From contig JWKQ01000002.1 of assembly GCA_000806115.1 (NCBI GenBank), positions 52,497 to 116,496 of the forward strand: a stretch of DNA of 64,000 nt, written 5' to 3'. Within the stretch, counting starts at the first letter, position 1, and each line of letters begins with the position of its first letter. Made by a program: the position numbers and the translations under genes. This DNA is from an archaeon GW2011_AR5. GTDB taxonomy: Archaea; Aenigmatarchaeota; Aenigmatarchaeia; GW2011-AR5. Below are positions 22,817 through 60,017 of this stretch, in pieces. The notes under the pieces are model-generated. The model saw only the letters and a program-made list of their open reading frames with translations. It had not been told where the DNA came from and ran no database searches.

Positions 22817-22821
22817 TTTCA

Positions 22822-36848: not shown

Positions 36849-37544
36849 TCAGATCCTGCTGTAATTCTTTTTGTAAGTCTCGAACTTTCCCGTAAGGTTT
36901 TTTTCAATTTCCGGAGGCACGGATTTTGAGTAGTTGCCTTCCTGCACAGTTTCGCCTCGCTCCCCCTTCTCAAGCATTCTGAGGGATTCAATCATCAAAA
37001 CCTGTTCAGTATTCTGTATGCGAAGGAATATGTCAAGCAGCGTGTCGTCCTCGAACACGTTGATTTCTTTTCTTATTAAGAGTCTCCCACGGTCGATTTC
37101 CCTGCTGATAAGATGGCATGAAACTCCCTGCTTCATGTCCTTCAATATTGCCCATTTTATTGTGTCCAGCCCGCGGTTCTCCGGCAGCAGACCCGGGTGC
37201 ATGTTCAGTATTCCGGTTTTGAACTGGTTGATTATGTTTTCCTTTATGATGCGCGCGCCAAGAATCACGCCCACGTCAAGATCGTATTCCTTTACAAGTT
37301 CCTCGCACTCCTTGCTGTTATGTGCGACAACGTGGTATGGTATTTCAAGTTTCTTCGCTATTTCCGAGGGATGCATGTATTCCATGTCTTTTTGCGACAC
37401 GCGTATTTTTGACTGGTAGAAATTAAGCTGGACCGGGTCTGCGGCCAATATGCACTCTATCTTGTAGCCGTGAAGCATTAGCCACAGCAATCCTTCCTGG
37501 GTTTTCTTGTGCTTGAAGTTATATGCAAAGACGCCTATTCTCAT
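36849..37544 (-). CDS. Formyltransferase-domain protein (sugar N-formyltransferase-like; uses N10-formyl-THF)
   Basis: It starts at the internal Met MRIGVFAYNF... A formyl_trans_N pattern (HxSLLPxxRG region: NMHPGLLPENRG) is present. It directly abuts the aminotransferase stop. Confidence 0.65.
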   Translation of the reverse strand: MRIGVFAYNFKHKKTQEGLLWLMLHGYKIECILAADPVQLNFYQSKIRVSQKDMEYMHPSEIAKKLEIPYHVVAHNSKECEELVKEYDLDVGVILGARIIKENIINQFKTGILNMHPGLLPENRGLDTIKWAILKDMKQGVSCHLISREIDRGRLLIRKEINVFEDDTLLDIFLRIQNTEQVLMIESLRMLEKGERGETVQEGNYSKSVPPEIEKNLTGKFETYKKNYSRI

Positions 37545-38629
37545 CGCATCGCCGCCTTGACGCATTGTGCTATTCTTCCAAGATCATCTTCCGTCACTCT
37601 TGGATGAATCGGGAGGCTCAAAACTTCTTCAGAAAGCCTTTCAGAAACCGGAAGCAAGTCTTTGTAGCCGAGATTCAAGTAAAGTTCCTGCATGTGTATG
37701 GGTTTCGGGTAATATATTCCGTATCCTATATTGTTATTTTTCAGCTCGTTGATAACTTTTTGCCTTTTGCCTTCTGAAACCTTTATTGTGTACTGGTGAA
37801 AGACGTGTTTCCTGCCCGGCATAACGGCAGGCAATTCTATGCCTTCGGCGTCAGACAGCAATTCAGACAGAACAGCGGCATTTCTTATTCTTGCCGCATT
37901 GAAGCCGTTGATTTTCATGAGCTGCGCGCTGCCTATGGCAGCCTGCATCTCTGTCATTCTGAAATTGTACCCGAGAATCTTGTTGTCGTACGCGACGGTT
38001 GAGCCGTGGTTTATTATTTTTCTCGCCTCTTCTGCAACAGCATCGTCGCCTGTCGTGATCATCCCGCCCTCTCCTGTAGTCATGTTTTTCGTGGCGTAGA
38101 AAGAGAAGCATCCCGTTCCGAAGGAACCTGCATGCTTCCCGGAGAACTCCGCGCCGTGGGCCTGGCAGGCGTCTTCTATCAGAACCAGGCCGTGTTCTTC
38201 GCATATATTTTCCAGTCTTTTCATGTCGCACATCTGTCCGTACAAGTGCACCGCTACAATAGCTTTGGTATTGCCTGTTATTTTCTTCTCCACATCATCA
38301 AGGTTGATGCAAAAGTCGTCGTAATTGACATCGACAAAGACGGGCTTTGCGCCTGCGTGAAGTATGCTGTTAGCGCTCGCTGCGAACGAGAAAGAAGGCG
38401 ATATAACCTCGCCGTTCGTGATGCCGTTGGCAAGCAGGGTCGTGTGCAAAGCCGTTGTCCCGTTGCTGGTGGCTATAGAATGTGATACGCCGCAGAATTC
38501 GGAGAACGCTTCCTCAAAATTTTTTGTCTCTTCGCCGCGGGCAAGGGTGCCGCTTTTCAGGACGCGTACGACTGCATTAACTTCTTCCTGTTCTATAATA
38601 GGATCTGATATCTTTATCATGGTAGCCAT
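37541..38629 (-). CDS. DegT/DnrJ/EryC1/StrS family sugar aminotransferase (PLP-dependent)
   Basis: 362 aa with the hallmark fold-type I sugar aminotransferase motifs (SFYATKNMTTGEGG). Confidence 0.8.
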   Translation of the reverse strand: MATMIKISDPIIEQEEVNAVVRVLKSGTLARGEETKNFEEAFSEFCGVSHSIATSNGTTALHTTLLANGITNGEVISPSFSFAASANSILHAGAKPVFVDVNYDDFCINLDDVEKKITGNTKAIVAVHLYGQMCDMKRLENICEEHGLVLIEDACQAHGAEFSGKHAGSFGTGCFSFYATKNMTTGEGGMITTGDDAVAEEARKIINHGSTVAYDNKILGYNFRMTEMQAAIGSAQLMKINGFNAARIRNAAVLSELLSDAEGIELPAVMPGRKHVFHQYTIKVSEGKRQKVINELKNNNIGYGIYYPKPIHMQELYLNLGYKDLLPVSERLSEEVLSLPIHPRVTEDDLGRIAQCVKAAMR

Positions 38630-38860: not shown

Positions 38861-39835
38861 TTAGACGCTCTGCGTCTTCCTGTCAAGCATTCTTTCCGCT
38901 GCGGTTCTTACAGCTTCCTCTGAGGTGTACCTGGTCGCCCATCCGAGTTTCTTTAGCTTGGCAGTATCGAGAAGGAATCTTGTGATGTCACCGGGCCACC
39001 CGCCGGAATTGCCTGTGTACTTTATTTCCGGTGTCAGGCCCATTTCTTCCGTGACTATCTCGGCTATCCTGTCCACCGTTATCGCGTCGGTTGTGCTCAG
39101 GTTGAAAATATTGACATCGTCATGTGCATGCTCGAGGGCGAAAAGTATGCCAGAAACGCAGTCGTCCACAAGCATGTAGGATTTGCTCTGTTTTCCGTCG
39201 CCCAATATTTCCAGTTCCGAGGGATTTTGCCTGAGCTTGTAAATGAAATCCGATATGACTGTCCTTCCTTTTTTCCTGCTCTTGTCGCCCACTATGTTTG
39301 CAAACCTGAAAATCCATCCCTTCATGCCGAACATGCTGCTATACGCGGAGATTAGTCCCTCGCAAGCCACTTTGCTCGCGCCGTAGAGCGACGTAGGCTT
39401 CAACGGCCCGTAATCCTCCGGTGTTGGCATTTTGCCGGCCTTTCCGTAGACTACGGACGACGAAGAAAAGACTATCTTTCTTACGTTGTTTTTTTGCATC
39501 GCATCGAGAACCCTGTATGTTGCTATTGTGTTCTGCTCGAGGTCCTTGTCTGTCCTTTCGCCGGGGATGAATTTGATGTCTGGATTCGCTGCCAGGTGGA
39601 ATACTATGTCCTTGCCTTTCGTCGCCGTGTCAAGAACATCTTTATCAAGCACATCGCCCTCAATCAGCGTAAATGATGGATTACCCATGAACTCTTCTAT
39701 GTGCTCCGATTTGCCGCTGCTGAAATTGTCCAGGACAGTCACATGAAACTTTTTCATAAGCTCCTTAACAAGTTCTGACCCAATGCATCCGGCCCCCCCT
39801 GTAACCAGAACGGAAAGATTATTTTGGCTGTTCAT
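38861..39835 (-). CDS. NAD-dependent epimerase/dehydratase (UDP-sugar 4-epimerase-like)
   Basis: 324 aa with VLVTGGAGCIGS and YGASKVACE. Confidence 0.7.
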   Translation of the reverse strand: MNSQNNLSVLVTGGAGCIGSELVKELMKKFHVTVLDNFSSGKSEHIEEFMGNPSFTLIEGDVLDKDVLDTATKGKDIVFHLAANPDIKFIPGERTDKDLEQNTIATYRVLDAMQKNNVRKIVFSSSSVVYGKAGKMPTPEDYGPLKPTSLYGASKVACEGLISAYSSMFGMKGWIFRFANIVGDKSRKKGRTVISDFIYKLRQNPSELEILGDGKQSKSYMLVDDCVSGILFALEHAHDDVNIFNLSTTDAITVDRIAEIVTEEMGLTPEIKYTGNSGGWPGDITRFLLDTAKLKKLGWATRYTSEEAVRTAAERMLDRKTQSV

Positions 39836-39917: not shown

Positions 39918-41405
39918 CTATCCGGCGCATTTGTAAATGTCGAGGATTTTTACCGGCTTGTTTATAGTTGCCGAGACAGTGCAATTGTTTCTTGATGCAT
40001 ATTCAATAATATTTCCTCTCTCAAATCTTTCTTCTATGCTGCCATCAATGGCACAGTCTGCAGTCTCGTTGAACCGCTTGAAGTTCTGGTAGTAATAGCT
40101 TTCCAGCATGAAACGGTAATAGTTTCCCGCGTATACTGAGGTGCAATTTTCCCTGAGATAGGCTATTGTCTCTGTCATTCCCTCGGACGCCTTAGCTTCT
40201 GTGTCGAGCATGCCAAGCGGTTCCCAGAGCTGGTTATGGTACAGAACGTACGAAGGTGCGGCAAGCAGTGCCTGCACGAAGAGGGTTAATGATATGACGG
40301 CGATGAACATTGCCTGGCGTCTTTTCAGCAGACTGGCAGATCTCGCTGCGAGTATTCCCAAGAACGGGACCGCACCAGTTATATGACGATATGTTATATT
40401 TGTCAGCTGGAATGAGAGAAGAACAAGAAATACGATTGCAAACATAGCAATGAATTTGTCCTGTCTTGTTGGTTTTTTCGCCATACAGTATACGCTAAGC
40501 GCGAGCAGGAACAGGACAAGTATACTCTCCTTTGCAAGGAAAAGAAGGAGGTAGTTTATTGCAGGAAGCTTTAGGAGGATAGGGTACTCAACGTTCTCGA
40601 ACACGCTGGTGAATACTCTGCGTGAGAAGGACAGCAGGATTATTGGTACATCACCAGATATCTGCTGGCTTCTTATCTCATTGCCGTACTGTACAGATAT
40701 TGTTGCGTCAGTATGCAGCCTTGAGAAACCGAAGGGCCAGGCAGCAAGGAAAATGATAATCGCAAGCACGAATGATTTTAGTATCCAGTTGTCAATTCCG
40801 AGGTTGAAGCCGCGTCTGATAGAAAGCCTTATCCGCTTCTCATAAAGCGCATAGACAATTATGAATATGAATAGTATGATTGAGATGAATTTCGTGGCTA
40901 ATGCAAGCCCAAGAAAAATTCCGAGCCATGCAAAAGAATACTTTTTCTTCTCATGGACAGCCTGCCATGTAAAGAATGCCGCCATCACATAGAAGAAGCT
41001 AAGCATGGTTTCCTGCTGCACATATCTGCTGAATTGTATATGTATTATTGAGAATGCGGTTATTGCTGATGCAAAAAGTGCGGTATTTTCACCGTAAAGC
41101 TTTCTTGAAAGCAGGAACACAGCAAGTACTGTCAATATACCAAACACTGCTGAGACGATCCTCATGCTGGATTCTGTGTCATTTATCATGACAGCTGCGC
41201 CGAAAATATATTTCGCCAGCGGCGGTGTGTCAAAAATGTAGTAATTATTTACGAAATTTCCGCTTGCATACTCGTCAGAAGCCTGTTTCATCTCGACTTC
41301 GCTGTAGCTGTAAGTTTCCCATGAGAGATCCTGTACCCTGAGAAATGTGGCAAGAACAACAACAATAACAAGCGTGAGTAAAACCGTTTTTTGCGACATT
41401 GCCAT
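39918..41405 (-). CDS. GT-C fold membrane glycosyltransferase (family 39/83, PMT/ArnT-like)
   Basis: 495 aa, multi-TM. A DTPPL motif is near the N-terminus, and there is a C-terminal soluble region. Confidence 0.55.
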   Translation of the reverse strand: MAMSQKTVLLTLVIVVVLATFLRVQDLSWETYSYSEVEMKQASDEYASGNFVNNYYIFDTPPLAKYIFGAAVMINDTESSMRIVSAVFGILTVLAVFLLSRKLYGENTALFASAITAFSIIHIQFSRYVQQETMLSFFYVMAAFFTWQAVHEKKKYSFAWLGIFLGLALATKFISIILFIFIIVYALYEKRIRLSIRRGFNLGIDNWILKSFVLAIIIFLAAWPFGFSRLHTDATISVQYGNEIRSQQISGDVPIILLSFSRRVFTSVFENVEYPILLKLPAINYLLLFLAKESILVLFLLALSVYCMAKKPTRQDKFIAMFAIVFLVLLSFQLTNITYRHITGAVPFLGILAARSASLLKRRQAMFIAVISLTLFVQALLAAPSYVLYHNQLWEPLGMLDTEAKASEGMTETIAYLRENCTSVYAGNYYRFMLESYYYQNFKRFNETADCAIDGSIEERFERGNIIEYASRNNCTVSATINKPVKILDIYKCAG

Positions 41406-41437
41406 TGTAATTTAGTCGATGCTATGATTAAATATCT

Positions 41438-42124
41438 TCATGCGAGTGCCAGTTTAATTCGGAGGTGTATGAGTTGGAAGAACATCCTGATCGGGTCGAA
41501 GAACTTGATTTTTGTGCCCTCCCGATGTTCCCATTTTATCGACATTTCTTTTAATGAATATTTCTTGTGCCTTATCCTGTAAAATATCTCGACGTCGAAT
41601 ATCCATCTGTTTGACACCATGTTCTTGAAAAGTTCCTTTGCCGCAGATTTCCTAAATCCTTTGAAGCCGCAAAGGTTATCCTTGACATGTATTCTGAAGA
41701 TAAAGTTCGCCCAGAAGTTGAATAGCTTTCCCGTCGTCTGCCGCAAAAGCGGCTGATCAACATTTGACTCATAGTTTGTTCTGTCGCCGACTACCACATC
41801 GAATTGGTCGAGCAACGGGAGCATTTTTTTAATCTCCATTGGGCTTGTTGATCCGTCCGCGTCTATGAAGATTATCTTTTCGCCGGTTGCAGCAAGCATT
41901 CCTTTCTTGATTGCGAACCCTTTGCCCATGTTCTTTTTGTAGGTTATTATACGAGCTTTCCGGAAACTTTTCAAAATATCAAGTGTTCTGTCAGTGGAGC
42001 CGTCATTCACAAAAATTACTTCGTAATCCTTGAGTGTTCTCGTCAGATTTGAAAGCTCACCAAGAAACGGTTCTATGCGGCTCTGCTCATTGTATACTGG
42101 CACCACAATCGATAGCTTTGTCAT
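41438..42124 (-). CDS. GT2 glycosyltransferase, polyprenyl-phosphate sugar synthase-like (Dpm1/ArnC-like)
   Basis: 228 aa with VVPVYNEQ...YEVIFVNDGSTDRT and DADGS. Confidence 0.7.
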   Translation of the reverse strand: MTKLSIVVPVYNEQSRIEPFLGELSNLTRTLKDYEVIFVNDGSTDRTLDILKSFRKARIITYKKNMGKGFAIKKGMLAATGEKIIFIDADGSTSPMEIKKMLPLLDQFDVVVGDRTNYESNVDQPLLRQTTGKLFNFWANFIFRIHVKDNLCGFKGFRKSAAKELFKNMVSNRWIFDVEIFYRIRHKKYSLKEMSIKWEHREGTKIKFFDPIRMFFQLIHLRIKLALA

Positions 42125-42184
42125 CTGATTTGATTTCGAATCTAGACTTTATAAAGAGTTTAAAAAGCACAATGTATCAGGTGG

Positions 42185-43654
42185 TTACGCCAGCATCTTG
42201 TCTCTGATTTTCCTCTCTATAGGAAAGTGATAGAAGTTGTGCTTGAATCTGAACTTTGCTATCGGATTGTAGATGTCGAACAGAACTTTTCCGCGTCGTG
42301 TGCTTATCTTGTATTTGACATTCTTATTCATGAAGTAGGATGTAAAATTGATGTTGTCTATTATCTTGAGTCGCTTCTTGTCGAGCCAGGTGGGGGAGTT
42401 CTTCGTCCATCCGTCAAAATCGAAGTTTGCCCATTCATTAAGGCTTGTTGGCTGCTTGAATCCTCCTTGTATAGAGAGATCCCACGCCTCCGTTCCAAGA
42501 TAAGGGCAGAAGGTGAAGAACAAACAGTACGCGTTCTTGTTCTCCTTCATAAGCTGGAGCGCAAGCTCCTTGCTCATGCGTATGTCCTCCTCTGTCTCTG
42601 TTGGATAGCCAAGTATAAACGTGAACTTTGAGACAATATTCAGCTTCGCAAGAATCCTGTTCGCCTTGACAAAATCCTCGACCTCCTCATCCTTTTTCAT
42701 CAACTTTATCATTCTTGGCGAGCCTGACTCAATGCCGACATCAATGTTCTTGCATCCGCTCTTCACAAGCAGCTGCTGGTATTCCTCGTCCATCCTGCAT
42801 ATAGCATCGGCGCGTATTCCTAGTGTGCCCCATGCGAAGTCATCAAACTCGTTGACAATTCCGCGCAGTATTGTTTTCACCCGGTTTGGGTCTGTACCGA
42901 AATTGTCATCTTGGAAGAAGAAATCGCGTATTCCATAAGTGTCTATAATGAATCTTATCTTTTCAAGAACGCGTTCTGCAGAGTAGCATCGCCATGTGTT
43001 CTTATGGACCGCAGGGTCGATGCAGAATGTGCATCGGAACGGGCATCCTCTGCTGGTTGTGAGTATTATCGACTGTCTGCTCCTGAAATCAACTGCATAA
43101 TATTTCTTCATGTCAACAAGATGATACGGCAGGTCCGGAAGCTCGTCTAGATTCTTCAGGTTGGGCCTGCTTTCATTGATTACAACATGTCCGTTTTCCC
43201 TAAAACCAATACCCTTAACGTTCCGCAGATTGCCTTTCCTTTCAAGAGTGTGTACAAGTTCGGCAAAGGTGAGCTCGCCCTCTCCAATAGTTATTATGTC
43301 TATCAACGTGTCTCCAAGAGTCTGGTGCGGCTGCATTGTCGGATGCATTCCACCCCACATAACAGGTATGTCCTTGTTGAAGTCCTTGACAAGCCGCGAT
43401 AGCTCCAGTGAATATTTCAGCTGCGGACCTGTCATTCCAGTCGTCCCGACTACGATAGGATTCAATTTCAGCTGTTTCTCGAGTTTCTCTTTCCAGTCAG
43501 ACTCGACGCGTTGGTCGATTATCGTCACTTTGTAACCTTCTTTCTCTGGGATTGAAGCTATTCCAAGCAATCCTTCGGGTATTCTTGCACCAAGATAATC
43601 CCAGCTCCCGGTGCGAGGTTGCACAAGAACGATATTTCCCGATTCTGACATCAT
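42185..43654 (-). CDS. B12-binding radical SAM protein
   Basis: 489 aa with an N-terminal B12-binding region and CPFRCTFC. Confidence 0.7.
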   Translation of the reverse strand: MMSESGNIVLVQPRTGSWDYLGARIPEGLLGIASIPEKEGYKVTIIDQRVESDWKEKLEKQLKLNPIVVGTTGMTGPQLKYSLELSRLVKDFNKDIPVMWGGMHPTMQPHQTLGDTLIDIITIGEGELTFAELVHTLERKGNLRNVKGIGFRENGHVVINESRPNLKNLDELPDLPYHLVDMKKYYAVDFRSRQSIILTTSRGCPFRCTFCIDPAVHKNTWRCYSAERVLEKIRFIIDTYGIRDFFFQDDNFGTDPNRVKTILRGIVNEFDDFAWGTLGIRADAICRMDEEYQQLLVKSGCKNIDVGIESGSPRMIKLMKKDEEVEDFVKANRILAKLNIVSKFTFILGYPTETEEDIRMSKELALQLMKENKNAYCLFFTFCPYLGTEAWDLSIQGGFKQPTSLNEWANFDFDGWTKNSPTWLDKKRLKIIDNINFTSYFMNKNVKYKISTRRGKVLFDIYNPIAKFRFKHNFYHFPIERKIRDKMLA

Positions 43655-43698
43655 ATCACCAAAACAATGTTATCTATTAGGTTATAGACTATTAAAAT

Positions 43699-45270
43699 TT
43701 AGCTGGTTTGCGAAATTTTGCAAGTTATCCCAACTTTCCTGCTGTTGACTATTGCGAAGAACGGCTCGTCCTCGCATAATTTTGATATGTTTATTATTTT
43801 CTCTTCTTCATACATTGAATAGAATGCAAGGTATTTCACCTGTCTCTCCCGTAAGAATTTCTCGTTGAGCTCCGGCCTGCGGAGGAAACTAGCTTGCCCA
43901 GATGGAGCAAGGTAAAGCGAGATGTCCCTGTCCGACCAAAGTTCGGTGTAAGGATAATCTCTTTCTCTAACTGCATCTATAAGCTGGCTTGTGGCAGATG
44001 AGTTCATTGTTATCAGAAAACTCGTGCCGAAGAGGAAGAATATTGATAATCCCGTAGCTGCCCCGATGAGCAGCTGTCTATTTTTGGGCACAAATATGAA
44101 TACTGTAGCCAGAACGAAGAAGAATGCTACGGAAGTGGGTGAATAATACGGTAGCATGTCGTTAAGGCCAGTTAGGTACGCCAGCAACAGTGCTACGGTT
44201 GCGCCGAATATTATGTATTGCATGTCATTACGCCAAAGTTCGCTTACAAGCTTCGCAGAAAGTATTATTGCTGGTGCGATTCCTATGATCATGAGCCGTT
44301 GAAAATCCTGCCCACTGCTCAAGAAAGCGATGAGAAATGTAATACCCAGCCAGCATGCGAGTATGTAGAAGGGCTTGTCACGCTTCAGTCTGGCAAGGGC
44401 GATAAGCATCAATGCCGCAAAAAACGGTGTCAGCTGCCAGGCGAATGATGACATGTAAAATATCTTTTCATATCCTGTCTCCTGGTATCCGGTACGTGCT
44501 GTCATGAATGACTTGACATAGCTGTCGAAGAAATTGAACTCGTCATTTGAAACGCCTGTGAGAGCCTCATTTATTGGAAATGAAAAATAAATCGCGAGCA
44601 GCGAAAGAACACCTGCCGAAACTATGAAAAGAAAGGATTTGCTGAATTTTACCCTGTCTCTGTGAAGGTAAGCGATGACAAGCAAAGCAGGGAGAATTGC
44701 GAGCGCCGAGAGCTTCGTCAGGAAGCCAAGCACTGTCATGATGACAAAGAGTGACAGATAGATGTTCTTTTTTCCTCTAAGGTATTTCAGGAAGAAGAAT
44801 ACGGATGCGGCAGTTGTCAGCATCAGAAAATTATCGCCGAATGCAATTGATGATGCGTAGAAATGGTATCTCAACAACGCTGCTAAGAGGGCTGCTATGA
44901 CGCCAACCTTCTCCGAATAAAGGTGCCTGCCAATGAGATAGATAAATACTATGGAAAGCAGTCCGAAAATTATCGGCAGAAATATCATAAATGCGTTAAA
45001 TCCGAAAATCGAAGCCCAAAGCGAATAGAGCAGGGTTCTCATCGGGGGGTGGGTGAAGTTGAAGAATAGTCCGTCATCAATGTACGTCATCTCCCCATTA
45101 CTCGTCTCGCTTGTTGAATATACCGCTGCCCTTCCTATCTCTGCAAAATTCCTCGCCGGACCGGCGGTGTCTATTGCGTCGCCTGTGAAATATGTGCCAA
45201 AGAAAGCGGAGCGTATTACCAATGCAAGAATAAGTATCGCGACAAGTTTTTTCATCTCGTCACCCGCCAT
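43699..45270 (-). CDS. GT-C fold membrane glycosyltransferase (family 39/83, PMT/ArnT-like)
   Basis: 523 aa, multi-TM, with THPPM and a C-terminal soluble domain. It is a paralogue-type repeat of 39918-41405. Confidence 0.55.
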   Translation of the reverse strand: MAGDEMKKLVAILILALVIRSAFFGTYFTGDAIDTAGPARNFAEIGRAAVYSTSETSNGEMTYIDDGLFFNFTHPPMRTLLYSLWASIFGFNAFMIFLPIIFGLLSIVFIYLIGRHLYSEKVGVIAALLAALLRYHFYASSIAFGDNFLMLTTAASVFFFLKYLRGKKNIYLSLFVIMTVLGFLTKLSALAILPALLVIAYLHRDRVKFSKSFLFIVSAGVLSLLAIYFSFPINEALTGVSNDEFNFFDSYVKSFMTARTGYQETGYEKIFYMSSFAWQLTPFFAALMLIALARLKRDKPFYILACWLGITFLIAFLSSGQDFQRLMIIGIAPAIILSAKLVSELWRNDMQYIIFGATVALLLAYLTGLNDMLPYYSPTSVAFFFVLATVFIFVPKNRQLLIGAATGLSIFFLFGTSFLITMNSSATSQLIDAVRERDYPYTELWSDRDISLYLAPSGQASFLRRPELNEKFLRERQVKYLAFYSMYEEEKIINISKLCEDEPFFAIVNSRKVGITCKISQTS

Positions 45271-45965
45271 TTAGCGATCTTTGCAAGCAGCTTGATGTGG
45301 TTCTTTATCTCCTTTGTATTGCTCAATTTAGACTCGCCGTATATCCGTGTTGTCAGCGTCACCGGGACTTCGATGACATTTCTCCCTTTCTTTATCATGT
45401 CAAAGAGGATTTCTGCGCATATGTCGAATCCCCTGCTTTTCATGCTTATCCCCTTCAATGCATCGCGCCGATAAAGCCTGAATATTGAACTCATTGCAGT
45501 GATGTTCCTTCCGAGAAGCGTACTGTAAAGAGTATTTACTGACTTGCTTAGGAATTTTCGGTACCAGAGAACTTTCGTTCTTCCCCCCTTGCCGAAATGT
45601 GTCCCGATCACGCAGTCGTAATCGCCGCTATTGTATTTGGTTATAAGTTTTGGAATCTCCCTTGGATGAAAGGTGAAGTCTGCGTCCAGGAAAATTATCA
45701 GGGTGCCTTTTGCGCTCTTCACGCCCGTCCTTGTGCCCGCTCCAAGTCCCATGTTTCGCGGATGCTGAACCATGCGCACATACCTGTATTTTTTCTGAAG
45801 CTTCCTTACTTCATCAGCAGTGCCGTCCGTTGAACCGTCGTCAATAACCAGGATTTCATAGCGCATACCGACGCCTTTCAGGACGGGTATCAGCTCTTTT
45901 TCAATGCGCCTGATGTTCTGCTCCTCATTGCACGCGGGAATGACGACGGTAAGCGACTCTGGCAT
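45252..45965 (-). CDS. GT2 glycosyltransferase, polyprenyl-phosphate sugar synthase-like (Dpm1-like)
   Basis: 237 aa with VVIPACNEE...YEILVIDDGSTDGT and DADF. Confidence 0.7.
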   Translation of the reverse strand: MPESLTVVIPACNEEQNIRRIEKELIPVLKGVGMRYEILVIDDGSTDGTADEVRKLQKKYRYVRMVQHPRNMGLGAGTRTGVKSAKGTLIIFLDADFTFHPREIPKLITKYNSGDYDCVIGTHFGKGGRTKVLWYRKFLSKSVNTLYSTLLGRNITAMSSIFRLYRRDALKGISMKSRGFDICAEILFDMIKKGRNVIEVPVTLTTRIYGESKLSNTKEIKNHIKLLAKIAKWRVTR

Positions 45966-45969: not shown

Positions 45970-47292
45970 TCACCAGTCGTATTTGAATATTGGAAAGCCC
46001 TTGCACAGTTCTAATATATCCGACTTAACCCTTTCTTTTGTTGCGGCGTCGTTTGCGTGTTCGATTGCTTTAGAAATAAAGCCCGCTATATCCTTCATCT
46101 CGCTCTCCCTCATGCCTCTTGTTGTCAGTGCGGGAGTACCAAGCCTTATCCCGCTCGGATCATAAGGCTTTCTTGTGTCAAACGGTATAGTATTTTTGTT
46201 CACAGTTATGCAAACGTCTTCCAGCGCCTTCTCGGCTTCTCTTCCTGTTATGTTCTTGTTCTGGAGGTCGATGAGCATCAGGTGGTTGTCAGTCCCGTCA
46301 GTCACGAGCTTGAACCCGTGAGCCATGAGGGATTCCGCCAGCGTCTTTGCATTTTTAAGTATCTGCTGGGCATACCGTTTGAATCCCGGCTGCATGGCTT
46401 CGTGAAGGGCAACTGCAATTCCTGCTGTTGTATGATTATGAGGGCCGCCTTGAAGTCCGGGGAATATTGCCCTGTCAATTAGTGTGGGCAGATTTTCCCT
46501 CGGGTTAGCGCCGTCAGGAAGCGGTTTCAAAGGTTCTGACGGATTTCCGTTGCACATTATCATGCCGCCTCTAGGTCCTCGAAGCGTCTTGTGTGTAGTG
46601 GTTGTTATAACATCTGCGTGTCCTGCAGGTGATGGAACTACCTTGGCAGCAATCAATCCGGCCTCATGTGCGATGTCCGCGACGAAGTAAGAGTCTATGC
46701 TGTGCGCTATCTCGCCTAGCCGCTTGTAATCATAAATCCTCGGGTATGCTGTCGCTCCGCAGAATATCAGCTTTGGCCTTTCCTGTTTCGCCTGCGCTTC
46801 GAGCGCGTCGTAGTCTATCGTACCGTCTTGCCCTGTCTTGTAATTTACAGCATTATAAAATCTGCCAGAAAAATTCACATTCCAGCCGTGAGTAAGATGC
46901 CCGCCGAAAAACAGATGAAGTCCCATTACCTTGTCGCCCTGGTTGAGAAGCGCAAAGTATACCGCCTGATTTGCCGGACTGCCTGAGAGCGGCTGGACGT
47001 TTGCATGGCTCACGCCGAAAAGTTTTTTCGCGCGGTCAACGGCGAGCGATTCAATCTCGTCAATGAACTGGTTGCCTCCGTAATACCTTTTTCCCGGATA
47101 GCCTTCGGAATACTTGTTAGTAAGTATCGAGCCCATGGCTGCCAGAACAGAATCGCTTACATAATTCTCGGAAGGAATCATTTCAAGTCCGTTCTTCTGT
47201 CTGTTTGCCTCTTTTTGCATTGAAGTGTAAATTTCGGGGTCGGATTGCTCGAGCATATTGCCACCTTCTTTTTTAATTCTATAATCTGTCAT
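45970..47292 (-). CDS. glyA: Serine hydroxymethyltransferase (the start may be the second Met at 47256)
   Basis: 440 aa with the PLP-lysine region TTTTHKTLRGPRGG. The length is typical. Confidence 0.85.
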   Translation of the reverse strand: MTDYRIKKEGGNMLEQSDPEIYTSMQKEANRQKNGLEMIPSENYVSDSVLAAMGSILTNKYSEGYPGKRYYGGNQFIDEIESLAVDRAKKLFGVSHANVQPLSGSPANQAVYFALLNQGDKVMGLHLFFGGHLTHGWNVNFSGRFYNAVNYKTGQDGTIDYDALEAQAKQERPKLIFCGATAYPRIYDYKRLGEIAHSIDSYFVADIAHEAGLIAAKVVPSPAGHADVITTTTHKTLRGPRGGMIMCNGNPSEPLKPLPDGANPRENLPTLIDRAIFPGLQGGPHNHTTAGIAVALHEAMQPGFKRYAQQILKNAKTLAESLMAHGFKLVTDGTDNHLMLIDLQNKNITGREAEKALEDVCITVNKNTIPFDTRKPYDPSGIRLGTPALTTRGMRESEMKDIAGFISKAIEHANDAATKERVKSDILELCKGFPIFKYDW

Positions 47293-47302
47293 TTTTAATA
47301 GG

Positions 47303-47404
47303 TATATAGTGAACCCACAAACATGCCTGAATTCTTTTGTGGGTTCACAGATAGCTCACAAGGGAGTGATATTATCCAGATTATTTCCTTGTAGAGCTAT
47401 AATC
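47303..47404. promoter_or_regulatory. Palindromic promoter element E3 (hairpin-1 gtgaacccacaaa/tttgtgggttcac + AGATAG + hairpin-2 + CTATAAT), upstream of glyA; it overlaps the last 15 codons of the 5-FCL gene
   Basis: About 85% identical to E1 over about 100 nt. There is a perfect 13 bp inverted repeat at 47309-47348. The 5-FCL stop codon (47356-47358) lies inside the element. Confidence 0.6.
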
Positions 47405-47928
47405 CGTTCCTCCGTAAGTATCATGTCAACAGGCACGTCATTGCTTTCCGTGTCGATTTTGTCCACTATCTGGAAGTCGAACGCGAGTGCTATTTTCTTG
47501 CCGGCGGTTTTTGCAAGGAACCTGTCAAAATATCCGCCGCCGCGTCCTATGCGGTTGCCGTTTTTGTCAAAAGCCGTGCCCGGAATTATAATCACGTCGA
47601 ATTCATTTTTGGCTGAAACTTCCATCGGCTCCGGAATGCCGAAAGCGCCCGACTTGAGTCCGCTGCTGAATGTCCCTGGCACGATGTCGCCGTCCCTGAT
47701 GACAGGACAGTAGACATTCTTTCCCAGTTTTACGGATTCGCGAATCACTTCCGACGTATCGACTTCGTGCATGTCTGACAGGTAAATGAATATGTCGCCG
47801 GCAGTCTGAAAGTCCTCGAGCAAAATGAGCCTTTCCTTTATGATTCCGCTCTTTATTTTCATGTTGGTATGGGATTTTAACTCTTCGGATTTCTGTTTTC
47901 TGACTGTTCTTTTGTCCGTGTGTATCAC
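47356..47928 (-). CDS. 5-formyltetrahydrofolate cyclo-ligase
   Basis: 190 aa with a GRGGGYFDR motif. The C-terminal 15 residues are encoded by repeat element E3. Confidence 0.7.
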   Translation of the reverse strand: MIHTDKRTVRKQKSEELKSHTNMKIKSGIIKERLILLEDFQTAGDIFIYLSDMHEVDTSEVIRESVKLGKNVYCPVIRDGDIVPGTFSSGLKSGAFGIPEPMEVSAKNEFDVIIIPGTAFDKNGNRIGRGGGYFDRFLAKTAGKKIALAFDFQIVDKIDTESNDVPVDMILTEERIIALQGNNLDNITPL

Positions 47929-48755
47929 CTGTTTTGCACCAGATACGCATTCAGGGTGTTCTGCACCAGCATAGCTACCGTCATGGGTCCGACACCGCCG
48001 GGCACCGGCGTAATTGCAGCCGCCTTTTCCTTTACAGAAGCGTCTGCGTCGCCTACGAGCTTTTTGCCGTCCCTGTTTATGCCGACATCTATAATTATTG
48101 CATTTTCTTTTATCATGTCGCCCTTCAGGTAATTCGGCTTGCCGACTGCAACAATTACTATATCAGAATTCTTCGTTATATTTTCTATGTTCTTCGTTTT
48201 AGTGTGACACATTGTAACGGTAGCATCCCTGTTGTAAAGCATGGAATAGAGCGGCTTGCCAACATGCGCGCTTCTGCCTATGATTGCAACGTTGGCGCCG
48301 CTTATCTTTGTATTTTCTTCGAGAATTTTGATTATGCCGTACGGTGTGCATGCCGGCATGCTTTCGTCGCCGTAAGCGAGTCTTCCGAGATTGAAGGGAT
48401 GCATGCCGTCGACATCTTTCATCGGATCCAGAAGTTCAATGAATTTCTGTGTGTCGAGCCCGGGGAGGGGAAGCTGGATGAGTACGCCATTTACTGACAT
48501 GTCATTGTTTAGTTTTTTTAGAAGACTTGCCAGAGATTCTCCGTCGTCCGCTCTGTGTATCTCTGCCTGCATTCCGACCGACTCGCATGTCTTTTTTTTA
48601 ATCTTCACGTATGTCAGAGAAGCTGGATCGTTGCCGACAAGTATAGTTGCTAGTTTTGGTTTGATGCTGTTTTCTCTAATATATTTTTTTGTCTCTGAAA
48701 GGTATTTGTCAGCCGTCCTTTTTCCGTCTATGATTTTGCATGACATCCAAATCAT
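47925..48755 (-). CDS. folD: Bifunctional 5,10-methylene-THF dehydrogenase / 5,10-methenyl-THF cyclohydrolase
   Basis: 276 aa with the FolD signatures (GKRTADKYL..., VGNDPASLTYV, GGVGPMT). Confidence 0.85.
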   Translation of the reverse strand: MIWMSCKIIDGKRTADKYLSETKKYIRENSIKPKLATILVGNDPASLTYVKIKKKTCESVGMQAEIHRADDGESLASLLKKLNNDMSVNGVLIQLPLPGLDTQKFIELLDPMKDVDGMHPFNLGRLAYGDESMPACTPYGIIKILEENTKISGANVAIIGRSAHVGKPLYSMLYNRDATVTMCHTKTKNIENITKNSDIVIVAVGKPNYLKGDMIKENAIIIDVGINRDGKKLVGDADASVKEKAAAITPVPGGVGPMTVAMLVQNTLNAYLVQNR

Positions 48756-51779: not shown

Positions 51780-51783
51780 GCAA

Positions 51784-55252: not shown

Positions 55253-55384
55253 GTTATCACCCTGTAAGAAACACCAGAATTCTAAATTCATGTCTAGGTT
55301 CTTAAGTTAATAACACGACAATTTATTTTAAAGTGACATTGGTACAAGCTTCAAAATAAGAACGTCAAAAATCTGTTTTTTAAA

Positions 55385-57936: not shown

Positions 57937-57937
57937 G

Positions 57938-59967: not shown

Positions 59968-60017
59968 TTAGAAAACTTGGTTTTATCCTTTTTAAGCTGT
60001 TTTTACCTAATTTTCGC

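What the first reader, a model, noticed from the sequence alone, without database searches (positions are those of the whole stretch)
39918..45965. Two tandem Dpm1-like GT2 + PMT/ArnT-like GT-C modules flank a B12-binding radical SAM enzyme
The minus-strand gene order is GT2 (45965), GT-C (45270), B12-rSAM (43654), GT2 (42124), GT-C (41405). A polyprenyl-phosphate-sugar synthase paired with a GT-C transferase is the established logic of protein O-mannosylation (Ppm1/Pmt) and of lipid A aminoarabinose addition (ArnC/ArnT). Two such pairs bracketing a cobalamin-dependent radical SAM enzyme suggest an extracytoplasmic glycosylation step. Its lipid-linked sugar donor or acceptor may be C-methylated, or otherwise modified by radical chemistry. 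This combination is not a described archaeal pathway.
Basis: partly seen in the sequence, partly recalled or inferred. Interest (0 to 1): 0.6.

Follow-up and report, generated by a model that had tools for sequence, protein, structure and literature searches.

The report
B12 radical-SAM enzyme wedded to lipid-sugar glycosylation
In a tiny groundwater archaeon, a vitamin-B12-dependent radical enzyme sits in a conserved three-gene unit with the two enzymes that load a sugar onto a membrane lipid and then attach it outside the cell. The same unit recurs in other archaea and in bacteria, which points to an undescribed sugar-tailoring step in cell-surface glycosylation.

Summary
The five genes are real, at the stated coordinates, with the stated domains. 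The window comes from the DPANN archaeon GW2011_AR5 (Aenigmarchaeota).

Both short GT2s match polyprenyl-phosphate glycosyltransferases best (P. furiosus DPMS, ArnC, GtrB). Both membrane proteins are GT-C glycosyltransferases by Pfam PMT_2, conserved acidic and PP loop motifs, and AlphaFold models that match ArnT, AglB and Pmt4.

The five-gene block is not a conserved unit. The two GT2/GT-C pairs are old paralogues (24-34% identity). The conserved unit is the triad rSAM -> GT2_b -> GT-C_b. In close relatives it follows UDP-glucose dehydrogenase, a nucleotidyltransferase and UDP-xylose synthase. In one orthologue a UbiA-type polyprenyl-phosphate phosphoribosyltransferase replaces the GT2.

All nine rSAM-family members I sampled (40-100% identity; DPANN, Omnitrophota, a proteobacterial MAG) have a GT-C within 6 kb. 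Eight have a short GT2.

Best reading: a three-component-type extracytoplasmic glycosylation system (like AglD/R/S, Gtr or Arn) with a dedicated class B radical SAM tailoring enzyme. It probably C-methylates a pentose, probably at the polyprenyl-phosphate-linked stage. The chemistry and sugar identity are inferred, not shown. I found no description of this in the literature. I rate it a new variant of a known kind, of moderate to high interest.

The parts
42185..43654 (-). Class B (B12-binding) radical SAM enzyme 'rSAM1', 489 aa. It is the anchor of the conserved triad.
   Evidence: Pfam Radical_SAM 2e-19 and B12-binding 1e-15. CxxxCxxC at C204/C208/C211 is invariant. No NCBIfam equivalog is reached: BchE 149 bits against a cut-off of 481, HpnJ 141 against 578. 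Best PDB sequence hits are AprD4, TokK and OxsB. No TM segment.
41438..42124 (-). GT2_b, 228 aa: soluble or peripheral polyprenyl-phosphate glycosyltransferase, a lipid-linked monosaccharide synthase.
   Evidence: Pfam GT2 3e-33. Best PDB hits are GtrB 3e-15, ArnC 3e-13 and DPMS 3e-12. Best NCBIfam hits are PgfS, AglJ, Dol-P-hexose transferase, ArnC and PpgS, all below cut-off. DxD motif at D88-A-D90; no TM helix. Orthologues (62-67% identity) lie directly after rSAM1 orthologues in L007, L093, L094 and L095.
39918..41405 (-). GT-C_b, 495 aa: GT-C-fold glycosyltransferase with a Cys-rich C-terminal extracytoplasmic domain.
   Evidence: Pfam PMT_2 3e-20 and PMT 2e-12. Invariant E30, E36, E38, nearly invariant D59, and the 'FDTPP' motif in the first external loop; invariant C421/C451/C475/C493. 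AlphaFold model has pLDDT 74.8 and pTM 0.79. Foldseek top hit is ArnT 5ezm (E 1e-7, TM 0.59), followed by AglB, PglB, STT3 and Pmt4.
43699..45270 (-). GT-C_a, 523 aa (518 in public calls): second, divergent GT-C-fold glycosyltransferase.
   Evidence: Pfam PMT_2 1e-17. Invariant D31, D34, R40, N41 and H74-P75-P76. hhalign against the GT-C_b family gives 98.5% probability, E 4e-15, over 347 columns. The family profile hits A. fulgidus AglB at 1.3e-4. AlphaFold model has pLDDT 68 and pTM 0.73. Foldseek finds AglB at 1e-6, and the best TM is to ArnT (0.52-0.54). NCBI names the 100%-identical protein 'oligosaccharyl transferase STT3 subunit [archaeon GW2011_AR5]'.
45252..45965 (-). GT2_a, 237 aa: polyprenyl-phosphate glycosyltransferase. 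It overlaps GT-C_a, so the two are probably translationally coupled.
   Evidence: Pfam GT2 9e-35. PDB hits are P. furiosus Dol-P-Man synthase 8e-30 and ArnC 3e-23. Best NCBIfam hit is ArnC at 6e-27, 94 bits against a cut-off of 529. DxD motif at D94-A-D96; no TM helix.
50844..53867 (-). Three genes for UDP-xylose supply: UDP-glucose dehydrogenase (52587-53867), sugar-1-P nucleotidyltransferase (51784-52596) and UDP-glucuronate decarboxylase UXS (50844-51779). They are the probable source of module b's donor sugar.
   Evidence: Pfam assignments. UXS matches human UXS1 at 9e-95. In L093 and L094 the orthologues (53-76% identity) lie directly upstream of rSAM1-GT2_b-GT-C_b on the same strand.
38861..39835 (-). 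GalE-like NDP-sugar 4-epimerase, 82 bp downstream of GT-C_b. It is a candidate UDP-pentose or UDP-hexose 4-epimerase serving the module.
   Evidence: PDB: A. fulgidus GalE-1 at 1e-90. Homologues at 54-69% identity recur beside GT-C_b-type modules in L090, L091 and L092.
45970..49861 (-). SHMT (45970-47292), 5-formyl-THF cyclo-ligase (47356-47928), FolD (47925-48755) and UDP-GlcNAc 2-epimerase (48752-49861). They lie directly upstream of GT2_a and are syntenic partners of module a.
   Evidence: Pfam assignments. The same order SHMT-FolD-Epimerase_2-GT2_a(56%)-GT-C_a(35%) occurs in L090.
36849..38629 (-). DegT-family sugar aminotransferase (37541-38629) and sugar N-formyltransferase (36849-37565). 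This is a formamido-sugar branch. Its link to either GT2/GT-C module is unproven.
   Evidence: DegT Pfam 9e-127; NCBIfam PseC 3e-88 and ArnB 7e-76. Formyltransferase PDB hits: dTDP-Qui4N formyltransferase 3e-15, PseJ 5e-15, WbkC 3e-12, ArnA 2e-6.

Best explanation
The region holds two old, divergent modules of the three-component type of extracytoplasmic glycosylation.

How each module works:
- A short cytoplasmic GT2 transfers one sugar from a nucleotide sugar to dolichyl/polyprenyl phosphate.
- The lipid-linked sugar is flipped across the membrane. No dedicated flippase gene lies in the block.
- A GT-C enzyme transfers the sugar to an acceptor outside the cell. The acceptor is most likely an S-layer or other surface glycan, or a protein.

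Where the rSAM belongs: it goes with the downstream module only. rSAM1-GT2_b-GT-C_b is a conserved triad.

Proposed order of steps for module b:
1. Glc-1-P -> UDP-Glc -> UDP-GlcA -> UDP-Xyl, made by the nucleotidyltransferase, UGDH and UXS. The GalE-like enzyme may then 4-epimerise the product.
2. GT2_b makes polyprenyl-P-pentose.
3. rSAM1 works on the cytoplasmic face with SAM, an Fe4S4 cluster and cobalamin. It modifies an unactivated carbon of that sugar, most likely by C-methylation. The anomeric phosphate stays intact, so the product is still a donor.
4. After flipping, GT-C_b transfers the tailored sugar.

Module a (GT2_a/GT-C_a) is an independent, ArnC/ArnT-like pair. It travels with the folate genes and the UDP-GlcNAc 2-epimerase gene.

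Shown here: the gene identities, the GT-C fold and the conserved gene linkage.

Inferred only: the sugar identity, the stage at which the rSAM acts, its chemistry and the acceptor.
For: Enzyme identities.

Linkage among close orthologues:
- rSAM1 orthologues at 81-82% identity are followed on the same strand by GT2_b (62-67%) and GT-C_b (34-56%) orthologues in L007, L093, L094 and L095.
- In L093 and L094 the triad is preceded by UGDH-NTP-transferase-UXS.
- Of 10 non-redundant ORFs scoring >=500 bits to rSAM1, 9 have a GT-C within 3 kb. The tenth sits at a contig end.

Linkage among more distant family members (40-59% identity):
- L105, Omnitrophota: GT2(233)-rSAM-PMT_2(495), with gaps of 0-2 bp.
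- L104: YfhO-rSAM-PMT_2-GT2.
- L106 and L107: a short GT2 plus PMT_2 beside the rSAM.
- L103 and L009: several rSAM/GT2/PMT_2 sets.
- GT-C_b homologues in L090, L091 and L092 each sit beside a short GT2 and a B12-rSAM.

Evidence for the lipid-linked stage: in the 59%-identical orthologue (L008), the rSAM is 2 bp from a UbiA-type enzyme. That enzyme's best match is decaprenyl-phosphate phosphoribosyltransferase (1.4e-57). A PAP2 phosphatase and two GT-Cs follow. That route uses PRPP, not a nucleotide sugar. The intermediate shared by the two locus types is therefore a polyprenyl-P-pentose.

Evidence that the target is the sugar rather than the carrier: different GT2/GT-C pairs come with different rSAM paralogues (L090, L092).

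Precedents:
- AglD/AglR/AglS in Haloferax (PMC3871713).
- Bacterial three-component pentofuranose systems, whose auxiliary epimerases diversify the pentofuranose that is incorporated (PMC11127046).
- The rSAM enzymes Cds and HpnJ, which act on lipid-linked sugars (PMC13459092).
Against: - No biochemical data exist for any member of this family.
- The rSAM matches no characterised class B family at trusted cut-offs. Methylation is only the most common class B chemistry, not a demonstrated one. Its best PDB hit is AprD4, a dehydratase.
- The argument for the lipid-linked stage rests on one locus type (L008, L097, L098). That locus also holds a GT2 and SDR genes, so a nucleotide-sugar substrate is not excluded.
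- In the window itself the UDP-Xyl genes lie about 7 kb away, next to a different rSAM paralogue.
- No flippase gene sits in the block.
- Among distant paralogues (<200 bits) only 36 of 167 have a GT-C within 3 kb.
- DPANN glycan islands are dense. Some adjacency could reflect island structure rather than pathway coupling. The within-locus permutation test for distant loci gives only p = 0.0135.
Confidence: 0.55

Rival explanations
1. The rSAM is coupled to the GT2/GT-C pair but acts earlier, on the nucleotide sugar (for example UDP-xylose or a UDP-pentose). It would make a modified NDP-sugar that GT2_b then loads onto the lipid carrier.
For: In L093 and L094 the rSAM lies between UXS and GT2_b, which would match pathway order. 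Characterised sugar-modifying class B enzymes act on soluble substrates, by my own recollection of Fom3 on CMP-HEP and GenK on gentamicin intermediates. The rSAM has no TM segment.
Against: The orthologue in L008 is translationally coupled to a PRPP-dependent UbiA-type polyprenyl-P phosphoribosyltransferase, a route with no NDP-sugar intermediate. In L105 the order is GT2-rSAM-GT-C. Cds and HpnJ show that rSAM enzymes without TM helices can act on lipid-linked sugars.
Confidence: 0.22
2. One reading: the five genes form one functional unit. Both GT2/GT-C pairs depend on the central rSAM, for example as two successive transfers of the same radical-modified sugar.
For: All five genes are co-directional with gaps of 60 bp or less. 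The block is identical on six contigs of the same population. L090 has a rearranged GT2_a-GT-C_a-rSAM-GT-C_b-rSAM-GT2 arrangement.
Against: At 81% rSAM identity the upstream pair is absent (L007, L093, L095). In L094 it is separated from the rSAM by three genes and is only 32-34% identical. In L090 there are two rSAMs, one per GT-C. The two pairs are only 24-34% identical to each other.
Confidence: 0.1
3. The region is an archaeal Arn-like pathway. A 4-formamido sugar (an Ara4FN-like pentose or a 4-formamido-4,6-dideoxyhexose) would be made by UGDH, UXS-like, DegT and formyltransferase enzymes, with 10-formyl-THF supplied by SHMT and FolD. It would be loaded on the lipid by the ArnC-like GT2_a and transferred by an ArnT-like GT-C. 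The rSAM would be an accessory.
For: ArnC is the best NCBIfam hit of GT2_a. ArnT gives the best TM-score for both GT-C models. An ArnB-like DegT (7e-76), a sugar N-formyltransferase, UGDH and three folate enzymes all lie within 17 kb on the same strand.
Against: All Arn-family scores are far below equivalog cut-offs. The decarboxylase is a UXS orthologue (9e-95 to human UXS1), not ArnA-like. The formyltransferase is closer to dTDP-Qui4N, PseJ and WbkC enzymes than to ArnA. No ArnD-type deacetylase and no ArnE/F was found among the ORFs I scanned. DegT and the formyltransferase are followed by a GT4 Leloir transferase, a LegB-like dehydratase and an RmlD-like reductase, which fits a separate cytoplasmic branch. 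Neither gene is conserved next to the triad in other loci.
Confidence: 0.15
4. The rSAM modifies the lipid (the polyprenol/dolichol carrier or an acceptor lipid) rather than the sugar. Alternatively it performs non-methylating radical chemistry on the sugar, such as deoxygenation, epimerisation or ring rearrangement.
For: Many class B rSAMs in archaea modify isoprenoid lipids, for example the GDGT enzymes. The best PDB hit is the dehydratase AprD4. The lipid carrier is also common to the GT2-type and UbiA-type loci.
Against: Each GT2/GT-C pair has its own divergent rSAM paralogue (L090, L092, L103). That is not expected for a common carrier. A Cds/HpnJ-type ring contraction would destroy the anomeric phosphate linkage that a GT-C donor needs; this is my inference from the mechanism described.
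Confidence: 0.15

Closest known systems
Haloferax volcanii AglD / AglR / AglS (a Dol-P-mannose synthase, a Wzx-like flippase factor and a Dol-P-Man:glycan mannosyltransferase)
   Same: This is an archaeal system. A GT2 charges dolichol phosphate with one sugar in the cytoplasm. After flipping, that sugar is added outside the cell to a protein-bound glycan (PMC3871713). The window also carries a Wzx-like gene (27733-29298) and an AglB.
   Different: No radical SAM partner is described for it. The window's GT2s lack membrane domains. GT-C_a and GT-C_b were not compared with AglS directly. The sugars probably differ.
Bacterial three-component glycosylation systems: GtrA/GtrB/GtrC, and the PPPRS / MATE flippase / GT136 pentofuranose systems (Kelly et al. 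2024, PMC11127046)
   Same: The logic is the same: a polyprenyl-P-monosaccharide donor, a flippase and a GT-C. Auxiliary epimerases dictate which pentofuranose is incorporated. Locus L008, which holds a 59%-identical rSAM1 orthologue, has a UbiA-type PPPRS-like gene, a PAP2 phosphatase, GT-Cs and a MATE/Wzx-like gene.
   Different: That paper does not mention a radical SAM component (0 occurrences). Here the auxiliary enzyme is a B12-rSAM. It is conserved with the pair across DPANN archaea and bacteria.
Arn pathway (ArnA/B/C/D/T/E/F) for lipid A aminoarabinose
   Same: It has a GT2 (ArnC) and GT-C (ArnT) pair, a UDP-GlcA-derived pentose, a DegT aminotransferase, an N-formyltransferase and a modification at the lipid-linked stage (ArnD). 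ArnC is the best NCBIfam hit of GT2_a. ArnT is the best TM-score match of both GT-C models.
   Different: All scores are far below family cut-offs. No ArnD or ArnE/F was found. The decarboxylase is UXS-type. Archaea have no lipid A acceptor. The rSAM has no Arn counterpart.
Mycobacterial polyprenyl-P-sugar systems: DPPR synthase/DprE1-E2/Emb-Aft, PpgS/Rv3779 and the MTX capping system
   Same: Short or UbiA-type synthases make decaprenyl-P-monosaccharides. These are then tailored on the lipid (by epimerisation) or carry an unusual pentose (5-methylthio-xylose), and GT-C enzymes transfer them (PMC11127046 discussion). PpgS (226 aa) is among the NCBIfam hits of both GT2s.
   Different: Tailoring there uses FAD/NAD enzymes or starts from methylthioadenosine. 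No radical SAM enzyme is involved. The phylogenetic context is different.
Cds (calditol synthase) and HpnJ, radical SAM enzymes acting on lipid-linked sugars
   Same: They are radical SAM enzymes genetically implicated in remodelling a sugar that is already attached to a membrane lipid (PMC13459092). HpnJ is among the top NCBIfam hits of rSAM1 (5e-41) and is the top hit of the paralogue at 53936-55291 (8e-62).
   Different: Scores are far below the HpnJ cut-off (141 and 210 bits against 578). Those enzymes make a carbocyclic end product on a structural lipid. Here the product must remain a glycosyl donor for a GT-C.
Class B rSAM C-methyltransferases of sugars and phosphonates (GenK, GenD1, Fom3; the solved relatives TokK and CysS)
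   Same: They share the architecture of an N-terminal B12-binding domain plus a radical SAM core. They methylate unactivated sp3 carbons, including sugar carbons (my own knowledge). TokK, OxsB, TsrM and CysS are among the PDB sequence hits.
   Different: Similarity is only distant (E 1e-13 or weaker). Those enzymes work in antibiotic pathways on soluble substrates. None is known to pair with a GT2/GT-C.

Membership tests
Polyprenyl-phosphate glycosyltransferases of GT2 (DPMS / ArnC / GtrB / PpgS type) | GT-A catalytic domain with a DxD motif | tested here: met
   Pfam Glycos_transf_2 covers nearly the whole model (3e-33 and 9e-35). DxD motif at D94-A-D96 in GT2_a and D88-A-D90 in GT2_b.
Polyprenyl-phosphate glycosyltransferases of GT2 (DPMS / ArnC / GtrB / PpgS type) | Closest characterised relatives use polyprenyl phosphate as acceptor | tested here: met
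   Top PDB hits are P. furiosus DPMS 8e-30 and ArnC 3e-23 for GT2_a, and GtrB 3e-15 and ArnC 3e-13 for GT2_b. Top NCBIfam hits are ArnC, AglJ, PgfS, PpgS and Dol-P-hexose transferase, all below equivalog cut-offs.
Polyprenyl-phosphate glycosyltransferases of GT2 (DPMS / ArnC / GtrB / PpgS type) | C-terminal transmembrane helices anchoring the enzyme, as in ArnC, GtrB and PfDPMS | tested here: not met
   A hydropathy scan finds no TM segment in either protein. They have the short form, like PpgS (226-residue model). By my own knowledge they also resemble human DPM1 in this respect.
Polyprenyl-phosphate glycosyltransferases of GT2 (DPMS / ArnC / GtrB / PpgS type) | Transfer of a sugar to dolichyl or undecaprenyl phosphate | not testable with these tools
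   This needs an enzyme assay.
GT-C superfamily (GT-C_A fold: ArnT, PMT, STT3) | Polytopic membrane protein with the GT-C fold | tested here: met
   There are 7-12 hydrophobic segments. For the GT-C_b model, the top 37 Foldseek PDB matches are GT-C or related membrane glycosyl-transfer enzymes, led by ArnT (E 1e-7, TM 0.59). The GT-C_a model matches AglB at 1e-6 and ArnT at TM 0.54. The models have moderate confidence (pLDDT 75 and 68).
GT-C superfamily (GT-C_A fold: ArnT, PMT, STT3) | Conserved acidic residues in the first extracytoplasmic loop | tested here: met
   GT-C_b has invariant E30, E36 and E38 and nearly invariant D59 ('FDTPP'). GT-C_a has invariant D31 and D34, plus R40 and H74-P75-P76. 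The catalytic role is inferred from position only. EL1 of the GT-C_a model has low confidence.
GT39 (protein O-mannosyltransferases, PMT) | Sequence membership, and a luminal MIR domain between TM helices | tested here: not met
   Pfam PMT matches only the N-terminal part of GT-C_b (2e-12) and does not match GT-C_a. No MIR domain was reported. The GT-C_b profile hits yeast Pmt1 only at 3.4e-4 over about 200 residues. NCBI's label 'glycosyltransferase family 39' on homologues is automatic.
GT83 (ArnT) | Sequence membership in the ArnT family | tested here: inconclusive
   ArnT gives the best structural TM-score for both models. The profile-to-sequence E-value is only 0.1 for GT-C_b, and there is no hit for GT-C_a.
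GT66 (STT3 / AglB / PglB oligosaccharyltransferases) | WWDxG motif in a C-terminal extracytoplasmic domain | tested here: not met
   Neither alignment has a WWDxG-like motif. The window's true AglB is elsewhere (57938-59341 plus 56833-57936) and carries 'YWDPG'. The NCBI name 'STT3 subunit' for GT-C_a is therefore not supported.
Class B (cobalamin-binding) radical SAM enzymes | CxxxCxxC cluster motif in a radical SAM core, preceded by an N-terminal B12-binding domain | tested here: met
   C204/C208/C211 are invariant. Pfam B12-binding covers residues 28-134 (1e-15) and Radical_SAM covers 200-363 (2e-19).
Class B (cobalamin-binding) radical SAM enzymes | Membership in a characterised subfamily (BchE, HpnJ, HpnR, PhpK, BzaD, AprD4, TsrM and others) | tested here: not met
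   All 27 NCBIfam hits are far below their trusted cut-offs. The best is BchE at 149 bits against 481.
Class B (cobalamin-binding) radical SAM enzymes | Cobalamin binding and methyl transfer | not testable with these tools
   This needs cofactor analysis and an activity assay.
Three-component extracytoplasmic glycosylation system (synthase + flippase + GT-C) | Adjacent polyprenyl-P-sugar synthase and GT-C genes | tested here: met
   There are two such pairs: GT2_a overlaps GT-C_a, and GT2_b ends 32 bp before GT-C_b. The pairing recurs in 9 of 9 related loci.
Three-component extracytoplasmic glycosylation system (synthase + flippase + GT-C) | A dedicated flippase (GtrA, ArnE/F, or MATE/Wzx-type) | tested here: inconclusive
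   None lies inside the block, and the intergenic gaps are too short to hide one. Candidates elsewhere in the island are a Wzx/MATE-like gene at 27733-29298 and an LPG_synthase_TM protein at 62528-63481. ORFs under about 100 aa were not scanned.
Arn (Ara4N) pathway | ArnD-type deformylase and ArnE/F flippase alongside the ArnA/B/C/T homologues | tested here: not met
   No Polysacc_deac_1 and no small multidrug-resistance-type protein was found among the ORFs scanned across the window. The ArnA, ArnB and ArnC model scores are below their cut-offs.

The most novel reading that the evidence does not exclude
This rSAM clade would be a previously unrecognised, widely distributed enzyme family found in DPANN archaea, Omnitrophota, Proteobacteria and others. 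Its members would perform cobalamin-dependent radical chemistry, most simply C-methylation, on a polyprenyl-phosphate-linked pentose. The step would fall between synthesis of that donor by a GT2 or UbiA-type enzyme and its transfer by a GT-C. That would define a 'four-component' route putting C-branched or chain-extended sugars onto cell surfaces. It would also be the first radical SAM enzyme known to act on a glycosyl-carrier lipid.
Probability: 0.3. Interest if true: 0.75.

Novelty: new variant of a known kind. Interest (0 to 1): 0.58.

Why it matters
- Extracytoplasmic glycosylation from polyprenyl-phosphate monosaccharides is a general way for bacteria and archaea to diversify their surfaces, as in O-antigen modification, lipid A aminoarabinose, mycobacterial arabinan and archaeal N-glycans.
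- A conserved, dedicated B12-radical SAM partner would add a new kind of tailoring chemistry to that scheme. It would predict unusual sugars (C-methylated or otherwise radical-modified) on the surfaces of uncultured DPANN archaea and several bacterial phyla.
- It would give radical SAM enzymologists a large unassigned clade with a concrete candidate substrate. The word-based search returned 1863 hits at E <= 1e-10 among the 8000 candidates it scored.
- It bears on how genome-reduced, host-dependent archaea build the surface that contacts their hosts.
- It implies these archaea need scavenged cobalamin for that purpose.
- The compact Omnitrophota version (GT2-rSAM-GT-C, gaps of 0-2 bp) offers a minimal three-gene cassette for heterologous testing.

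Tried and rejected
1. Recent tandem duplication of a GT2/GT-C pair. Rejected: the copies share only 34% and 24% identity.

2. The five-gene block as a conserved unit. Rejected: it occurs only in same-strain contigs. At 81% rSAM identity the upstream pair is missing or displaced.

3. Genome-collection scan with the full rSAM alignment. It returned only distant paralogues (26-38% identity). I used these as a background-like survey: 21 of 80 loci had a GT-C, and many loci were arrays of 3-9 rSAM paralogues.

A 6-sequence version worked but gave only 10 loci.

5. Single-sequence PDB searches with the GT-Cs found nothing. Family profiles gave only weak hits to Pmt1 and AglB. Assignment to GT39, GT83 or GT66 was therefore not possible, and I used fold comparison instead.

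7. Literature searches for a radical SAM enzyme together with GT-C, polyprenyl or nucleotide-sugar terms gave nothing relevant.

8. An ArnA-like decarboxylase role for the SDR at 38861-39835. Rejected: it is GalE-like. The UXS orthologue is at 50844-51779.

9. A Cds/HpnJ-type ring contraction as the rSAM reaction. I judged this unlikely, because it would abolish the glycosyl-phosphate donor that the GT-C needs. This is an inference.

Full report
OBSERVATION

- GT-C_b: 39918-41405, 495 aa.
- GT2_b: 41438-42124, 228 aa.
- B12-rSAM: 42185-43654, 489 aa.
- GT-C_a: 43699-45270, 523 aa.
- GT2_a: 45252-45965, 237 aa.

Pfam confirms every domain call with strong E-values:
- Glycos_transf_2: 3e-33 and 9e-35.
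- PMT_2: 3e-20 and 1e-17.
- Radical_SAM 2e-19 plus B12-binding 1e-15.

The genes are separated by 32-60 bp or overlap. The same block, with identical proteins, is on six metagenome contigs.

A protein 100% identical to GT-C_a is deposited as 'archaeon GW2011_AR5'. The closest named rSAM homologue is from Candidatus Aenigmarchaeota. The window is therefore from a DPANN archaeon of Rifle-type groundwater.

WHAT THE PARTS ARE

The GT2s:
- They have DxD motifs and no transmembrane segment.
- Their best solved relatives are all polyprenyl-phosphate glycosyltransferases. For GT2_a these are P. furiosus Dol-P-Man synthase (8e-30) and ArnC (3e-23). For GT2_b they are GtrB (3e-15), ArnC (3e-13) and DPMS.
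- The NCBIfam hits tell the same story (ArnC, AglJ, PgfS, PpgS, Dol-P-hexose transferase), but all are below equivalog cut-offs.

The membrane proteins:
- Single sequences have no match in the PDB.
- The two families are homologous to each other (hhalign 98.5%, E 4e-15).
- Both carry invariant acidic residues and a PP motif in the first external loop. In GT-C_b these are E30/E36/E38 and 'FDTPP'. In GT-C_a they are D31/D34/R40 and 'HPP'.
- The AlphaFold models have pLDDT/pTM of 74.8/0.79 and 68.1/0.73. They match only GT-C enzymes with significance. ArnT gives the best TM-score for both (0.59 and 0.54). AglB, PglB, STT3 and Pmt4 follow.
- They cannot be placed in GT39, GT83 or GT66. They have no MIR domain and no WWDxG motif, and only marginal profile hits.

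The rSAM:
- It has the invariant CxxxCxxC motif and an N-terminal B12-binding domain.
- It reaches no characterised subfamily. BchE, ApyD and HpnJ score 141-149 bits against cut-offs of 481-750.
- Its solved relatives are AprD4, TokK, OxsB and TsrM, at 1e-15 to 1e-11.

IS THE BLOCK A UNIT?

It is not. The two pairs share only 34% (GT2) and 24% (GT-C) identity.

Neighbourhoods of rSAM orthologues show what is conserved:
- L093 (81% identity): UGDH - nucleotidyltransferase - UXS - rSAM - GT2_b (66%) - GT-C_b (54%), all on one strand.
- L094: the same up to the contig end, with a distant GT2_a/GT-C_a-like pair three genes upstream.
- L095: rSAM - GT2_b - GT-C_b.
- L007: rSAM - GT2_b - GT-C_b, without any upstream pair.
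- L099 and L101 (65%): rSAM, an SDR, a GT2 and a GT-C.
- L008, L097 and L098 (59%): the rSAM is 2 bp from a UbiA-type enzyme whose best match is decaprenyl-phosphate phosphoribosyltransferase (1.4e-57). A PAP2 phosphatase, two GT-Cs and SDRs follow.

Module a has its own synteny. SHMT - FolD - Epimerase_2 - GT2_a - GT-C_a occurs in both the window and L090.

HOW FAR DOES THE ASSOCIATION REACH?

Homologues of GT-C_b at 35-50% identity (L090, L091, L092) each sit next to a short GT2 and a B12-rSAM. Several such sets can occur per locus, with different rSAM paralogues.

Family members at 40-47% identity, from other lineages, keep the association:
- Omnitrophota L105: GT2(233) - rSAM - PMT_2(495), with gaps of 0-2 bp.
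- A proteobacterial MAG, L104: YfhO - rSAM - PMT_2 - GT2.
- L106 and L107: a short GT2 plus PMT_2 beside the rSAM.
- Woesearchaeota L103: several sets.

In total, 9 of 9 sampled members have a GT-C within 6 kb. Eight have a short GT2, and the ninth has the UbiA-type enzyme.

In a survey with HMMs that I built, 9 of 10 non-redundant ORFs scoring >=500 bits to rSAM1 have a GT-C within 3 kb. Among paralogues below 200 bits the figure falls to 36 of 167.

In 80 loci anchored on distant paralogues, 21 contain a GT-C. That is 28 GT-C genes in 1.27 Mb. Eleven of the 28 lie within 500 bp of an rSAM, against 6 expected if placed at random within the locus (p = 0.0135).

The linkage is therefore strongest for the orthologous clade. 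It crosses the archaea/bacteria boundary.

MECHANISM

The established logic of GT2 plus GT-C pairs applies. Examples are AglD/AglR/AglS in Haloferax (PMC3871713), the Gtr and Arn systems, and the bacterial pentofuranose three-component systems (PMC11127046). A lipid-linked monosaccharide is made in the cytoplasm, flipped, and transferred outside.

A radical SAM enzyme needs SAM and a reductant, so it must act before flipping. Three observations guide the model:
1. UDP-xylose synthesis genes directly precede the triad in L093 and L094, and are present in the window. The window protein at 50844-51779 is a UXS orthologue (9e-95 to human UXS1). A GalE-like epimerase (38861-39835; 1e-90 to A. fulgidus GalE-1) recurs beside GT-C_b-type modules. 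The donor is thus probably a pentose derived from UDP-GlcA.
2. In L008 the same rSAM orthologue is coupled to a PRPP-dependent polyprenyl-P-ribose route. What the two locus types share is a polyprenyl-P-pentose, not a nucleotide sugar.
3. Each GT2/GT-C pair tends to have its own rSAM paralogue. This points to the sugar rather than the common carrier as the target.

The GT-C must still use the product as a donor, so the anomeric phosphate must survive. That favours C-methylation, the commonest class B chemistry. Deoxygenation or epimerisation are also possible. A Cds/HpnJ-type ring contraction (PMC13459092) is disfavoured.

These last steps are inference. Nothing here shows the chemistry.

THE ARN-LIKE READING

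The flanks contain several Arn-like elements:
- An ArnB-like DegT (7e-76).
- A sugar N-formyltransferase.
- UGDH.
- The three enzymes that make and recycle 10-formyl-THF: SHMT, FolD and 5-formyl-THF cyclo-ligase.

This resembles the Ara4FN pathway, and ArnC and ArnT are the nearest characterised relatives of GT2_a and of the GT-C models.

Several points count against membership:
- All scores are sub-threshold.
- The formyltransferase is nearer to dTDP-Qui4N, PseJ and WbkC enzymes than to ArnA.
- No ArnD or ArnE/F was found.
- DegT and the formyltransferase are followed by a GT4, a LegB-like dehydratase and an RmlD-like reductase. This suggests a separate cytoplasmic formamido-deoxyhexose branch.

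I keep it as a partial, non-exclusive rival for module a.

NOVELTY

The conserved, dedicated B12-rSAM partner is not described in anything I could find:
- The searches returned nothing relevant.
- The 2024 paper on three-component systems contains no occurrence of 'radical'.
- A 2026 review of lipid-modifying radical SAM enzymes contains no occurrence of 'polyprenyl' or 'dolichol'.

I therefore rate it a new variant of a known kind.

LIMITS

- Most loci are metagenomic fragments.
- My neighbourhood survey used ad hoc ORF calling and HMMs built here.
- The genome scan retrieved mainly distant paralogues.
- The rSAM was not modelled.
- No flippase was identified.
- The acceptor is unknown.

Noticed in passing
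window 56833-59341 (-): The oligosaccharyltransferase AglB appears to be split into two adjacent ORFs in different frames, 1 nt apart. The first (57938-59341, 467 aa) is the STT3 transmembrane part. The second (56833-57936, 367 aa, no Pfam hit) starts with TM helices and carries 'TYWDPGH', which resembles the WWDYG motif. L009 has a similar short STT3 (435 aa) followed by an unannotated 306-aa ORF. This could be a real split gene, programmed frameshifting or an assembly error.
   Followed up: partly
window 32525-34135 (+), 42185-43654 (-), 53936-55291 (-): The island holds three highly divergent B12-binding radical SAM paralogues. They score 132-176 bits to each other, against 1145 bits for self. 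The third is the most HpnJ-like (8e-62) and lies directly upstream of the UDP-xylose genes. Related loci hold up to 4 such paralogues in DPANN and up to 9 in bacteria.
   Followed up: partly
window 45970-48755 (-) and 36849-38629 (-): Three folate one-carbon enzymes (SHMT, 5-formyl-THF cyclo-ligase, FolD) are embedded in the glycan island. On the same strand lie a sugar N-formyltransferase and a DegT aminotransferase. This looks like a local supply of 10-formyl-THF for a formamido sugar. The SHMT-FolD-Epimerase_2-GT2-GT-C order is also seen in L090.
   Followed up: partly
window 59931-63481: This may be a third module. It comprises a 247-aa GT2 (59931-60674, +), an isochorismatase-family protein (60675-61328, +), a weak PMT_2/GT-C-like protein (61310-62503, -) and an LPG_synthase_TM (MprF flippase-domain-like) protein (62528-63481, +). 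The last is a candidate flippase for lipid-linked sugars.
   Followed up: no
window 18606-25014: A set of genes resembling a nucleotide-heptose pathway opens the glycan island. It includes a HAD phosphatase, a ROK kinase, a nucleotidyltransferase, a GHMP kinase, a SIS-domain isomerase, a HAD-nucleotidyltransferase fusion and an SDR. Similar GHMP-kinase and NTP-transferase genes (plus SIS in L103) occur near the rSAM/GT-C sets in L009 and L103.
   Followed up: no
window 25516-26685 (+): A Mur-ligase-family protein (Mur_ligase_M and Mur_ligase_C domains) is present in a DPANN archaeon, next to the glycan genes.
   Followed up: no
window 271-2454 (-): A reverse transcriptase (RVT_1, 3e-24) is followed by a LAGLIDADG-domain protein, in the lowest-GC part of the window (0.39). 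This is probably a group II intron or another retroelement.
   Followed up: no
L103, L105 (related loci): FAD/NAD_binding_8 'amine oxidase'-type flavoproteins lie beside the rSAM/GT2/GT-C sets in a Woesearchaeota locus and an Omnitrophota locus. Class I SAM methyltransferases abut the rSAM in L009 and L107 and lie within the sets in L092 and L105. This hints at further tailoring of the same sugar, such as mutase- or oxidase-type steps and O- or N-methylation.
   Followed up: no
L012, L019, L024, L034-L036, L042, L049, L057, L063, L070, L081 (related loci): Many bacterial and archaeal MAGs carry tandem arrays of 4-9 class B radical SAM paralogues of this broad family. They include Acidobacteriota, Omnitrophota, Bacteroidales, Bathyarchaeia and Verrucomicrobiia. 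Most arrays have no GT-C nearby, and their function is unknown.
   Followed up: no
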